64,000 nt of DNA from Octopus vulgaris (taxonomy: Eukaryota). Below the pieces are notes generated by a model. That model ran no database searches and was not told where the DNA came from. It worked only from the letters and a program-made list of their open reading frames with translations. This document shows, one piece after another, positions 2,191-64,000 of this stretch. The position numbers were made by a program, and so were the translations under genes. Location of the stretch: positions 60,388,001 through 60,452,000 of the forward strand of contig OX597832.1 of assembly GCA_951406725.2 (NCBI GenBank), in the 5' to 3' direction. The stretch's first letter is position 1, and each line of letters begins with the position of its first letter.

Positions 2191-2888
2191 CAATTTATGG
2201 GGATAATATAAGTCGATGTAATCGACTTATACTATCCCCATAAATTGTTACTTTTTGTATCGACCCCGAAAAAATGAAAGGCAAAGTCGACTTCAGAATA
2301 TAAACTTGGAAGAAAAGCCACAAAGCACTTTTTCCGGCATGGTAACGATTCTGCCTGCTCGCTGCTTTCAACCGATTTATATTCACGTACGAAATAAACA
2401 AGGAAGAGAATCAAGAGGTAACACGGTGCGTTTTAACCGCAGTGTGTAGCACCGCATTATACACTTCGCTCTTCTTGTTGCTCTCGCTGTCAAAAATGCT
2501 GTGATCCAATGATAAAAGAACATTGTTAGTTTGCTGGTGTACGACCAAGTCCGTGGTAAGGACGTGAGCGAAGTTGACCAACTGGTATTTTCTGTATCGA
2601 CTCCGAAAGAATGAATGGCAAAGTTGGCCTCGGCAGCATTTGACCAATCCCATTTTCAACAATTCTTCTTACTGTCACTAACTATTATTTGTGCTACCAC
2701 AAAACCTTTCATCCTTTCCGGGTCGATAAATTAAGTACCAGTGAGACACTGAAGTCGATGTAATCGACTTATCCCCTCCCACAAATTTCAGTCTTTGTGC
2801 CTATAGTATAAAGGATTATTTGTGTAACCACCAACGAAAGATCGCCTTCATTTTTTGATAATTTAATCTTATATCTCTTCATTTTATT

Positions 2889-3262
2889 TATTACCTCCGC
2901 CTTAGCGAAGGCGGGGGTATTGTTTTCAGTCGTGTTTGTTTGTTTGTTTGTCCGTGGGCGAGATATCTCAAGAACCACTGGATGGATTCGGATGAAACTT
3001 TCAGGGACGTTTGGCTTCGTGACTGGTACGAACTGATGAGATTTTGGGACTGATCCAGAACCGGACAAGGATTCTGAATTATTTTTTTCTGTTGTTTCAC
3101 TTAATTTTTGAGAGCGGTCGGGTTCACTTTTAGTATTCTCGTTTGTGAGAGCAGTCGAGTTTATTTCAGATATTCTCATTTTAAAAATCATCTCTGGCTA
3201 ATCGTTGAGAAGACGTTGGTGTTGCCTTGGCGGAGGCTTGCACTCTCTGAGTGCTCTTGGTT
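2889..3262 (+). mobile_element. Non-autonomous Helentron-associated (HINE/DINE-1-like) element
   Basis: Sub-terminal inverted repeats CCTCCGCC (about 2894) and GGCGGAGG (3229-3236), a (GTTT)n tract near the 5' end, a 3' hairpin GCACTC-TCT-GAGTGC (3240-3254), and T-rich flanks. Confidence 0.75.
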
Positions 3263-16423: not shown

Positions 16424-16630
16424 TTTTGGCACAAGGCCAGCAATTTCGAGGCAGGGTGTAAGTCGACTACATTGACCCCAATGTTCAACTGGTACCTATT
16501 TTATCGACCCCGAAAGGATAAAAGATAAAGTCGACCTCGGTGGAATTTGAACTCAGATCGTAAAGACGGACGAAATGTCGCTAAGTTTTTCGCCCGGCGT
16601 GCCACCGATTCTCTTAGCTCACCGCCTTGA
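16424..16630 (-). mobile_element. SINE, family A
   Basis: Near-consensus copy. Confidence 0.88.
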
Positions 16631-17028
16631 GACTATGAATATTATCCAACCATCTGGTTCTTGGTCTTCCCGTAAGTCTTCTGTCGGTTGGCTCGACTTG
16701 AAGGATCCGCCTTGTGATTCTTCGTTTGTGACATTTCCATCATACGTCCGTAGAACTGGAGCCGTTATCTCTGGATGCAGAGAAATAAAACGTCGACCTA
16801 GCCAGACTTCCTGGTCTCCGAGCTACGAACCCAGTCGAATAACGTTACCCCAGAGATCTTTCGAAGGACATACTTTTAGAATCATGTCATTCGTCTTAAT
16901 AATTCATAGAGGTCTACTTGGTGGCACCCGACACCAAGTGGAGGTGACGGTGGTAGCGGCACCGGCGGCGGCAGCAATAGCGGCGGTGGCGGTGCTGAAC
17001 AACCAATAATGACTCCGTTCGATCATAT

Positions 17029-60500: not shown

Positions 60501-62314
60501 CAAATATACACAATCAACCCAAGAAAATATATACTTAGGTTCATATATAAATATGTGTGTGTAGAGAGAGAAAGAGAGAGAGGAGAGAGATTTTTCTATT
60601 AAAGAATTTTTGTATGTGAAATTTGATAAATTAAAAACAAATTTATTTATTTCTGTTTTCTTTTGCTTAATTTGCTGTTGTGTGAAACACATGTTTTACA
60701 GTTATTGAACATAAAAAAAATGGACTCTTCAATAATTTAGCATGCATTACATGTGAGTATGTGTGTGTGTGCATATGTTTGCAAACAACTGTGTAAATGT
60801 ATGGCTGTCTTAGAACTTGGACAAGGAATCTTTTTTTTGTGTGTGTGTGTAGTGAGAAGAAATTAAGATAGAGTTTGTATTCTGGAAAAGAAGTTGGAAG
60901 GAGCAGCAAAGGGTCAGAGGTATGAGAACAAAATCCTGGAGATGAATAAACAAAAGATCATAATTATTTTCTTATATAGGCACAGGACCATAATCTGAAG
61001 AAGTGGAGGCCCGGTACTTGACTTACATTTAAGTGATCTTGAGGAGGATCACATGGCCAAGTTGACATCGGCAGCATTTTAAGTAAGAATTTAAGAAGCC
61101 AGAAACAAATAGCACTGCTTTAATGATTCTGGCAATCCACGAATGCGGAAAGCCTCAAATTTTGGGGGGCTTATGGACAAACCTTCTTAACTTCATCATG
61201 ACAAGGTACTCTATTTTACCAAATCCAAAAGGAAGAAAGGCTAAAATCGACCACAGTAGCAGGATCTGAACTCAGAATGAGGAGGAGAAACAACAACTAA
61301 CTACTTATACTAAGAATAATAATAATAGTGAAAACAACCTAAATTTGAACAAAATTTAATCTTTTATTTAAAAAAAAATGTACTCAAACTTATAACTATT
61401 TAAGTTCAAGAAGTTTACAGATATCAGATGTTAGGATTAAGTTTCACTAAATTCACATTTTCTCTTAATAAACAAACCTAATTTTAACTATGCATATACA
61501 CATATACGAGTGTGAGTGTGTGTGTGTCTATATACATACATACACAATATATATATATTGAGTGGGTAGCTTTCAATTCTACGAAGCTCTGATGCAATTC
61601 CATTCATTTCACTAAGTCACTGAAACCTACTGCCCCCACCCCATCTACTGACTATGATCCAGTCAACTATCCAATAACTCACTGCCATTGACCAGCTACA
61701 ATGTTTTTCATTTTTAACTGCTCCAATGCACCAACTAAACCCCAAACATCAACAACAACAACCTTCGTAGACGGAAATAGATATTGTGTGTGTGTGTGGA
61801 TATATGCATGTGCCCATGCCTTTGTGTAAGTGTGGGTATGTATGATGAACATGTGTATATAAATATATATTTATACACGCATACATATATTTAGATAGAT
61901 ATATATGTACATTGCACACACAAATACGCAACCAAACATAAAAATCTTTACAAGTCTGTGTGCATGTGCATAACCGGGCGCACTTTTGTATATCTTATTT
62001 CTGTGCAAATGTACATGTGTGTGTGTGTGTGTGTGTGAGGGAGGGAGAGAGTAATTGAACTTGACAGGCAGGGGTATGCATGTATGTGTTTGTGTGTATA
62101 AATTCAAATAGCATAAGAAATAAGTACAACCCACCAGCACTACCATCATCATCATCAATATCACCAACACCTCCTTCATCATAATCATCATCATCATCAC
62201 TACCACCATCATCATCATCATCATGGTGGATTGAATGAGAAAAAAAATGTCAGGGCTTTAATATTTATTTTTTCTCCTAATTTTTTTTTTCAAGTTTTGT
62301 TTGGGGTGTTGGAG

Positions 62315-62389
<75 letters not shown>

Positions 62390-63152
62390 TCACACACACA
62401 TACACATATTTTGTTCAGTTTTTTTTTTCTTTCTTTTTTAACTTCATCTTCTTTTTTCATCATCTTCTATCAGTTCCTTTAAATGATTGGCCGGATAAAA
62501 AGATATCATTATCATCATCATTAATACGAATTGTTGCCGTTGTTGTTCTTGTAGTAGTAGTAGTAGTAGTAGTAGTAGTAATAGTAGTTGCTGTAGTAGC
62601 AGTAGTAGTAGTAGTAGTAGGCTATGTTGTAGTACTCATCCCACCCGCCCCACCCTGTCAGTCATGTAAGACTATTATTAGTACTACTATTACTACTACT
62701 ACTACTACTAACTTCTATTACTGCTACTACTGCAACTATTAGTACTGCTACATTGATTGAGCCTATTTCTTTTTTTCTTTTTTTTTTTCTTAATCCCCAT
62801 TTCACATAGACAGACATGTAGATAGATAAATTGATAGATACTTAGATAGATAGACAGATAGAAAGATAGAGAATGAGAAAGTAAGAGAGTCTAGAATGAT
62901 CAGTGTAGGCTCCCCACTAAAAATAATAATAATAATAGTAATAATAATAATAATAATCTTGTAGTGATGCAATAAAACAAAGACGACAATAACAACAACA
63001 CTGTCCACCGAAGTAATAACAGTAAGAGTAGTAGTAGTAGTAGTTGTAGTTGTAATAGTGGTTGTAGATGTAGTTGTAATAGAAGTAGTAGAAAGTTGCT
63101 GTAGTAGTAGTAGTAGTAGTAGTAGGTCGGCTGCTGCTGCTGCTGCTGCTTC

Positions 63153-63289
63153 TCAAGTGGTCAAGTTGGGAGCAGCAAGGGCTGATAATATAACAGGGAT
63201 GTGATAGTATTTGCACAGGTGTCTTCGGCACTTCCCCTTAACTGAATCACGGCACACAGTCACCTTGCCCTCCGTCACTTCAACATAAT
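63153..63289 (-). CDS. mbl: Muscleblind/MBNL-family terminal coding exon encoding a CCCH zinc finger (ZnF4-like, second finger of the second tandem pair)
   Basis: The minus strand reads ttttttttcactttcag|AT TAT GTT GAA..., a strong acceptor in phase 1. It translates to xYVEVTEGKVTVCRDSVKGKCRRHLCKYYHIPVILSALAAPNLTT* (TGA at 63153-63155). The C-X7-C-X4-C-X3-H spacing and the VTVC..KGKC..CKYYH context match MBNL ZnF2/ZnF4. Upstream exons lie beyond the window end. Confidence 0.92.
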
Positions 63290-63665
63290 CTGAAAGTGAA
63301 AAAAAAAAAACGAAAAATAGAAAAAGAAGATAAAAATAAAAATTAATGAAAATAAAGGTAATAAAAACAATGAAGAATTATCATCATTGTCATTTTAATG
63401 TCTGCTTTTCCATGCTCACCTAGTTTGGATGGAATTTGCTGCGGCAAATTTTCCACAACCAGATGACCTTCCTGTTGCCAACCCTCACCTTGTTTCCAAG
63501 TAAGGTAATATTTCCTCATGACCAGATATGTCGTGGTGTGCAGGAAACAAAGAACACTATTTGTGTAATCTTCTGGCTTACAACTGTCATACATTGTCAA
63601 AGCAAAGAGACAAGCATGCATGCATGCACACATGTATGTACACGACAGGCTTCTTTCAGTTTACA

Positions 63666-63996
63666 CAAGTGATTCCCAACTGGGGCCCTTTTAAGAATTG
63701 TGGGGTCCATGCAATAAAATAGTAAATTGGGGATCCACATTAGTATTTTAAGAACCCCTAAAAAATTTTCCTTTAGATATATGTATTAGTCTGTATTGCA
63801 AGAAACAACTGGGTTTCTTTCTCTAACATTTTACATAGTTCAACCTACACAAGTTAATGTGTGAAATACAAAATAAAAATTTTGAAAGAATTTTCTATTA
63901 AACTAGTTTTTAAACATTGAATAACTATGGGGGTTTCACCAGAATAAAATAGTAATCAAAGGGGTCCATAGGTAAAAAATGCTTGAGAGCCCTTTG
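63666..63996. mobile_element. hAT/Charlie-type non-autonomous element in a muscleblind intron
   Basis: Termini CAAGTGATTCCCAAC and GCTTGAGAGCCCTTTG, with repeated subterminal GGGGTCCA motifs. Confidence 0.65.
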
Positions 63997-64000
63997 GTTT

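What the first reader, a model, noticed from the sequence alone, without database searches (positions are those of the whole stretch)
63153..63289. Hidden Muscleblind zinc-finger exon missed by the ORF track
Seen: a clean phase-1 acceptor, a CX7CX4CX3H peptide, and a stop 15 codons after the His. Known: this spacing is that of MBNL ZnF2/ZnF4, and Drosophila mbl makes isoforms with one or two tandem finger pairs through alternative 3' exons. Inference: this exon ends the four-finger isoform of a cephalopod muscleblind. MBNL is a major neural and muscle splicing and polyadenylation regulator, so this frames how the downstream sequence should be read.
Basis: partly seen in the sequence, partly recalled or inferred. 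Interest (0 to 1): 0.7.

Follow-up and report, generated by a model that had tools for sequence, protein, structure and literature searches.

The report
Muscleblind's sixth zinc finger exon
This is the spliced last coding exon of a mollusc muscleblind gene; it encodes the sixth zinc finger, part of a third, likely RNA-binding pair that many animals carry and jawed vertebrates likely lost, so it is ordinary for an invertebrate.

Summary
The exon is real. Acceptor, CX7CX4CX3H motif and stop are as described, and contigs of 4 of 4 public runs join it across a 3,256-nt GT-AG intron to an exon just beyond the window. It is muscleblind, but not ZnF4. The gene's true ZnF3/4 exon lies 73 kb upstream; the spliced partner is a CX7CX4CX3H finger, and a nine-exon model gives 448 aa with six fingers. 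The window finger is ZnF6, second finger of a third tandem pair that forms its own clade (100/99). That pair is in database proteins of sponges, corals, protostomes, echinoderms, hemichordates, amphioxus, tunicates, lampreys and hagfish, and in 0 of 72 jawed-vertebrate-type rows examined. The fly counterpart is likely published as an atypical 'second' pair (MblF, MBL-O/P). Skipping a 113-nt upstream exon would turn this exon into 3' UTR (not tested in RNA). This scan noted the third pair before, on the neighbouring part of this gene and in an arthropod. Ordinary exon; the ancestral three-pair design and its likely loss in jawed vertebrates is the only notable point.

The parts
63153..63289 (-). 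Coding part of the last coding exon (E9): end of the inter-finger linker, ZnF6, 15 codons, TGA
63201..63254 (-). ZnF6, C-x7-C-x4-C-x3-H; residues 416-433 of the 448-aa model
63290..63342 (-). 3' splice site: polypyrimidine tract (45 of 50) and CAG
   Evidence: used in 4 of 4 runs
63290..64000 (-). In-window part of the 3,256-nt GT-AG intron between the ZnF5 and ZnF6 exons. The rest of the gene lies beyond the window's end on G000:C19, minus strand: E8 (ZnF5, 85 nt) 60454546-60454630; E7 (113 nt, frame-setting) 60466072-60466184; E6 60497645-60497786; E5 60504571-60504639; E4 (ZnF3 and ZnF4, 243 nt) 60524044-60524286; E3 60543792-60543983; E2 (rest of ZnF2) 60578881-60579057; E1 coding part (ZnF1, start of ZnF2) 60632606-60632794
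   Evidence: only the E8-E9 junction was laid with RNA contigs
62264..63152 (-). Likely 3' UTR, microsatellite-rich; first AATAAA at 62269-62264; true 3' end not determined
   Evidence: contigs run on past 63140

Best explanation
This is the spliced last coding exon of a mollusc muscleblind gene, and it encodes the sixth zinc finger, which is predicted to fold with the fifth finger from the exon 3.3 kb upstream into a third tandem module that likely binds RNA. Shown: the exon, its splice to the ZnF5 exon, and its place in the pair-3 clade. Inferred from homology and reading phase: the nine-exon, 448-aa, six-finger protein over 182 kb. Predicted: an MBNL-type tandem fold, and contact with GC steps through the aromatic residue two places after the third Cys (the position of human Tyr236) and a conserved Arg two places after the second Cys. 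Inferred: the exon is translated when the 113-nt exon E7 is included; when E7 is skipped the protein stops inside the ZnF5 exon and this exon is 3' UTR, as with fly MBL-C versus MBL-O/P.
For: Splice joint in 4 of 4 runs laid, loose end mapped uniquely to the ZnF5 exon. Nine exons found by tblastn with other species' proteins join with GT-AG at all 8 introns into one frame with one stop and six fingers. Tree of 75 finger pairs from 27 proteins: pair 3 is one clade (100/99) holding this gene's last pair; its pairs 1 and 2 fall with other pairs 1 and 2. Exon alone: 68.8 bits for ZnF6 against 47.8 and 46.0. A model of a close relative's pair (P0015, 80% identical over the exon; mean pLDDT 74) matches MBNL tandem domains in all 9 Foldseek hits at E up to 0.001, best rmsd 1.3-1.5 A. 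In ZnF6, Arg at C2+2 is kept in 23 of 23 and Tyr/Phe at C3+2 in 23 of 23; Phe202 and Tyr236 intercalate at the GC step in human MBNL1 (PMC9780971, passages). Frame test of skipped forms; fly precedent (PMC9352392, passages).
Against: Only one junction was tested with RNA; the other seven, and any transcript carrying all six fingers, rest on homology. The runs are contigs whose RNA status is the tool's guess. The tree has 62 columns and the tool warns of long branches meeting at the root of the three clades; pair 2 is weakly supported (85/44). The fold was predicted for a relative, and the predictor has likely seen MBNL structures. ZnF6 lacks the aromatic at C1+3 found in most ZnF4 (Ala in 18 of 23, Ser here; human Tyr224), though ZnF2 lacks it too (Ser in 22 of 26). 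No RNA-binding data for any third pair turned up in my searches. The protein ends 15 residues after the finger, so the long helix that follows ZnF2 and is proposed to give specificity (PMC5888374, passages) is probably absent.
Confidence: 0.88

Rival explanations
1. One reading: the exon is ZnF4 and ends a vertebrate-like four-finger isoform, spliced to a ZnF3 exon.
For: Same Cys/His spacing as ZnF4; best solved-structure matches are human ZnF3/4 constructs, but the PDB matches hold no third pair to compete.
Against: ZnF3 and ZnF4 are one exon 73 kb upstream; the RNA joint goes to a CX7CX4CX3H exon; profile and tree place it in pair 3.
Confidence: 0.02
2. The exon is spliced but is mostly or only 3' UTR in this animal, because E7 is usually skipped and the protein stops in the ZnF5 exon; the six-finger form is rare.
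For: Skipping E7 gives an intact short tail, with the stop 50 nt before the last junction. In fly heads the short form is about half of transcripts and dominates the brain (PMC9352392).
Against: The peptide is 61-85% identical to database proteins across phyla, which needs selection on the protein. This rival is about abundance and is compatible with the best explanation in weaker form.
Confidence: 0.07
3. The third pair is folded and conserved but serves protein contact or dimerisation rather than RNA binding.
For: Distinct sequence clade, no aromatic at C1+3, no following long helix. Protein contacts were once proposed for human ZnF4 (mentioned in PMC9780971).
Against: Both positions tied to base stacking are kept in 23 of 23 sixth fingers; the finger is rich in Arg and Lys; the predicted fold is the RNA-binding tandem fold.
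Confidence: 0.12
4. A non-muscleblind CCCH gene, a detached fragment or a processed copy.
For: The Pfam family hit is named for ZAP-like fingers; a different intronless CCCH gene on C8 shows that look-alikes exist.
Against: Every name among the 38 hits is muscleblind or an uncharacterised/C3H1 label, apart from one spider entry with a toxin-style name; collinear exons on one strand; real intron removed; no second close copy in the genome search.
Confidence: 0.01

Closest known systems
Six-finger muscleblind gene models of invertebrates (e.g. Mercenaria P0003, Centruroides P0001, Branchiostoma P0119, Ciona P0088)
   Same: Three tandem pairs in the same order; C-terminal pair CX7CX4CX3H twice; in most the protein ends shortly after ZnF6; 74-77% identity over the exon for the clam and scorpion.
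   Different: Only lineage-level substitutions. Hemichordate and echinoderm models show two alternative versions of ZnF6; one was found here.
Drosophila MblF / MBL-O/P divergent finger pair
   Same: A D. simulans mbl isoform (P0234) has pair 1 plus a pair that groups with this one. Irion 2012 describes a MblF pair only 32% identical to vertebrate pair 2 (PMC3315501); Pamudurti 2022 describes an exon whose inclusion shifts the frame and adds two fingers (PMC9352392). Equating these published pairs with pair 3 is my inference; I did not have the D. melanogaster sequences.
   Different: Those papers count it as a second pair and describe fly proteins with at most two pairs; here all three pairs fit one reading frame.
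Human MBNL1-3 ZnF2 and ZnF4
   Same: Spacing, fold, stacking positions.
   Different: Paralogous finger, not the orthologue. 72 of 72 jawed-vertebrate-type rows have pairs 1 and 2 only, and in four aligned examples the C-terminus matches the stretch just before ZnF5 in lamprey and amphioxus.

Membership tests
Muscleblind/MBNL | CCCH fingers of type CX7CX4-6CX3H arranged as tandem pairs (PMC5888374) | tested here: met
   Six fingers in three pairs in the model; the last two joined by RNA contigs
Muscleblind/MBNL | Best sequence matches are muscleblind proteins | tested here: met
Muscleblind/MBNL | Motifs flanking pair 1 (RD/KWL or LEV box; KxQL/NGR; PMC5041496) | tested here: met
   WLTLEV before ZnF1 and QL..NGR after ZnF2 in exons E1 and E2
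Muscleblind/MBNL | Gene layout: pair 1 split by a very large intron, pair 2 in one exon (PMC3315501) | tested here: met
   53.5-kb intron inside pair 1; 243-nt single exon for pair 2
Muscleblind/MBNL | Binds YGCY RNA and regulates splicing | not testable with these tools
   Only residue conservation and a predicted fold
MBNL ZnF4 (second finger of pair 2) | Preceded by a CX7CX6CX3H ZnF3 in the same exon | tested here: not met
   Partner is CX7CX4CX3H in a separate exon
MBNL ZnF4 (second finger of pair 2) | Met at C1+1 (26 of 26 ZnF4 in my set) and grouping with pair 2 | tested here: not met
   Arg at C1+1; groups with pair 3
Third tandem pair (ZnF5/6) | Two CX7CX4CX3H fingers at the C-terminus, after pairs 1 and 2, forming their own clade | tested here: met

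The most novel reading that the evidence does not exclude
Three tandem pairs is the ancestral animal muscleblind design (third pair in two sponges, corals, all large bilaterian groups sampled, lampreys and hagfish), switched on and off by a frame-setting exon, and jawed vertebrates lost ZnF5/6 from MBNL1, 2 and 3 while keeping the exon in front of it as their C-terminal tail. Human MBNL would then be the reduced form, and pair 3 an unstudied RNA-binding module with its own specificity. A green-algal protein with three pairs hints that the design is older than animals.
Probability: 0.6. Interest if true: 0.5.

Novelty: new member of a known kind. Interest (0 to 1): 0.3.

Why it matters
For annotation it fixes the 3' end of this gene and the numbering of its fingers. 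More widely, the reviews and papers I saw describe MBNL as having one or two pairs. If three pairs is ancestral, comparisons of invertebrate and human MBNL (myotonic dystrophy models in flies, cross-species splicing assays) have been matching non-orthologous pairs in some isoforms, and a natural third module is available for RNA-specificity tests. The exon itself is not surprising: automatic gene models of many invertebrates already contain it.

Tried and rejected
ZnF4 reading: rejected (see rivals). Second finger-bearing last exon downstream in the window: none by motif scan, tblastn or genome search (the output was cut in the middle). Autoregulatory YGCY cluster in the 3' UTR: none; 1 sense against 12 antisense in the first kb, and no consistent excess over 12 kb. 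Rfam: 0 matches in the window. No RNA holder listed on record as RNA; the runs laid are guessed RNA. Only the E8-E9 junction has RNA data, so E7 and E4 skipping stay untested; upstream contig lengths (1,450-1,466 nt in two runs against 1,210 modelled coding nt) do not tell the isoforms apart. ESM Atlas: all hits under 0.9, leads only. C8 locus: intronless three-finger CCCH gene, not a muscleblind paralogue by layout; 'ZC3H10-like' is recalled, not tested. Literature: nine searches listed no paper that describes a third MBNL pair or its loss in jawed vertebrates; the library lacks most subscription papers, and Figure 1A and Supplementary Figure 1 of PMC5041496, which may show a six-finger Ciona protein, could not be seen (one search gave labels only; one supplementary file was not searched). 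Rows left out: the second tree dropped nine taxa of the first; one spider entry with a misleading name (P0024) was left out of all counts; of the 150 rows, 20 were looked up by name.

Full report
Observation. On the minus strand a pyrimidine-rich tract (45 of 50 bases) ends in CAG at 63290; the exon starts at 63289 in phase 1, encodes C-x7-C-x4-C-x3-H at 63254-63201, then 15 codons and TGA at 63155-63153. It is the only such motif in the window. The bare motif appears in 6 of 100 local shuffles, so the case rests on homology and splicing: Pfam PF22628 at E 8e-12, six MBNL constructs at E 8e-10 to 7e-8 among 8 PDB matches, and 38 database proteins, muscleblind wherever the name is informative except one oddly named spider entry.

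Splicing. Contigs of 4 of 4 runs laid, from 4 studies, match 63140-63290 with no difference and then continue with the same foreign letters. These occur once in the 254 kb examined, at the end of an 85-nt exon 3,256 nt upstream that ends in a GT donor in phase 1. The one-base overlap at 63290 is the G shared by the donor exon end and the AG. The runs are contigs and 'RNA' is the tool's guess, but exact removal of a GT-AG intron, with no second close copy of the exon in the genome search, is best read as spliced RNA.

Which finger. The window is G000:C19:60388001-60452000. A clam muscleblind finds seven stretches on the same strand of C19. With tblastn and boundary reading nine exons over 182 kb join with GT-AG at all 8 introns into 448 aa with one stop and six fingers: ZnF1/2 split by a 53.5-kb intron, ZnF3/4 in one 243-nt exon 73 kb upstream of the window exon, ZnF5 in the 85-nt exon, ZnF6 in the window. 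Further optional exons may exist. In a tree of 75 pairs from 27 proteins the third pairs form one clade (100/99) that holds this gene's last pair; pair 1 is 97/94, pair 2 only 85/44; the alignment has 62 columns and the tool warns of long branches at the root. The exon alone scores 68.8 bits against sixth fingers (21 sequences), 47.8 against ZnF4 and 46.0 against ZnF2 (25 each), own sequences excluded.

How it likely works. A model of a close relative's pair (P0015; 46-row alignment; mean pLDDT 74, 79-88 over the fingers) matches MBNL tandem domains in all 9 Foldseek hits at E up to 0.001, rmsd 1.3-1.5 A for the best; this is expected from sequence likeness and is not independent proof. Human Phe202 and Tyr236 intercalate at the GC step (PMC9780971, passages); by counting from Met222 and Tyr224 in that paper, Tyr236 is two places after the third Cys, where ZnF6 has Tyr or Phe in 23 of 23. 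Arg two places after the second Cys is also 23 of 23; its role in stacking on G is recalled, not from a call. At C1+3 ZnF6 has a small residue like ZnF2, not the aromatic of most ZnF4. Human pairs 1 and 2 differ in specificity (PMC5888374, passages), so a third pair may too. RNA binding by pair 3 is inferred, not shown.

Coding or UTR. I checked the frames: skipping the 113-nt exon E7 shifts the ZnF5 exon into a short tail and stops 50 nt before the last junction, giving 348 aa with four fingers and leaving the window exon as 3' UTR; skipping the ZnF3/4 exon keeps the frame and gives 367 aa with pairs 1+3. Neither skip was tested in RNA. In flies, inclusion of exon AE3 changes the frame and adds two fingers (MBL-O/P, mainly outside the brain) while exclusion gives MBL-C (brain), and the last exon is shared (PMC9352392, passages).

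Distribution. Of 146 rows that are not jawed-vertebrate type, 56 have pairs 1+2+3, 44 have 1+3, 9 have 2+3, 11 only 3, 18 have 1+2, 8 other; two searches were aimed at pair 3, and many rows are isoforms of one species, so these are not frequencies. Pair 3 is in named proteins of molluscs, a bryozoan, chelicerates, insects, a barnacle, tapeworms, Trichinella, echinoderms, hemichordates, amphioxus, tunicates, two lampreys and a hagfish, in corals, and in the sponges Oscarella (99 against 61 bits) and, weakly, Sycon (65 against 55). All 72 jawed-vertebrate-type rows (70 named, 2 assigned by likeness; from the best 120 of 3,264 hits, mostly MBNL2 and MBNL3, one MBNL1) have pairs 1+2 only; their C-termini reach at most 15 bits on the pair-3 profile, and in four aligned examples they match lamprey and amphioxus up to the point where ZnF5 begins. 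None of the 87 hits to a pair-3 query is named from a jawed vertebrate. This points to loss in the jawed-vertebrate stem, but rests on protein models, not on genomes, and most of the 150 rows of the profile search stayed unnamed (20 looked up). Green-algal and early land-plant proteins also have three pairs; the last pair of a Closterium protein sits at the base of the pair-3 clade (98/94) on a long branch with an unsettled bootstrap: a lead only.

What is known. Irion 2012 (PMC3315501; abstract, introduction, first results, passages) says one pair in invertebrates and two in vertebrates, adds an internal exon for the vertebrate-like second pair in insects, and mentions the weaker MblF pair (32% identity). 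A D. simulans isoform with pairs 1+3 (P0234) makes it likely that MblF's pair is pair 3. Oddo 2016 (PMC5041496; sections 14 and 20, passages) used a Ciona protein and says that finger number varies; a Ciona database isoform has six fingers, so six fingers may already be drawn in its figure, which I could not see. A 2025 review (PMC11837677, passages) and the planarian paper (PMC4978528, passages) speak of two pairs or one. Nine searches listed no paper on a third pair or its loss. This scan had the third pair twice before.

Verdict. Observation confirmed; interpretation partly supported. A real, spliced last coding exon of a normal invertebrate muscleblind, encoding ZnF6. New member of a known kind; interest 0.3, carried by the evolutionary reading rather than by the exon.

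Noticed in passing
G000:C19:60454546-60454630 (exon E8, beyond the window): In the E7-skipped form the stop codon ends exactly 50 nt before the last exon junction, at the edge of the 50-55 nt rule for nonsense-mediated decay (rule recalled). Whether that distance is conserved was not checked.
   Followed up: partly
proteins P0106/P0125, P0121/P0122, P0007: Hemichordate and echinoderm models carry two alternative versions of ZnF6 after the same ZnF5, suggesting a duplicated last exon in Ambulacraria.
   Followed up: no
proteins P0134-P0148 (amphioxus), P0238 (hagfish): Isoform models that keep ZnF5 but leave without ZnF6, giving five fingers. Hagfish models P0390 and P0391 run on for about 400 more residues and are named as another zinc-finger protein; possibly fused models.
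   Followed up: no
protein P0126 (Lethenteron): A second kind of six-finger lamprey protein with pairs 1+1+2, an independent duplication of pair 1.
   Followed up: no
proteins P0231, P0232, P0254, P0258: Green algae, a lycophyte and a fern have CCCH proteins with three MBNL-like tandem pairs.
   Followed up: partly
L032:3981-5414 (G000:C8, minus strand): Intronless 477-codon open frame with three CCCH fingers; a different CCCH gene, not a muscleblind copy.
   Followed up: partly
window 63130-63150 and 62930-63125: Seven AGC units directly after the stop, then long CTA/TTA microsatellites in the likely 3' UTR. No YGCY excess on the sense strand.
   Followed up: partly
protein P0024 (hit list): A 120-aa spider database entry with a toxin-style name matches the exon at 67% and carries the same Pfam family; likely a mislabelled muscleblind fragment.
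   Followed up: no
window 1-62000: No Rfam match; the 31 open frames of 120 aa or more in the window are mostly simple-repeat translations; a few (1750-2175, 2769-3197, 16551-17009) look less repetitive and were not searched.
   Followed up: no
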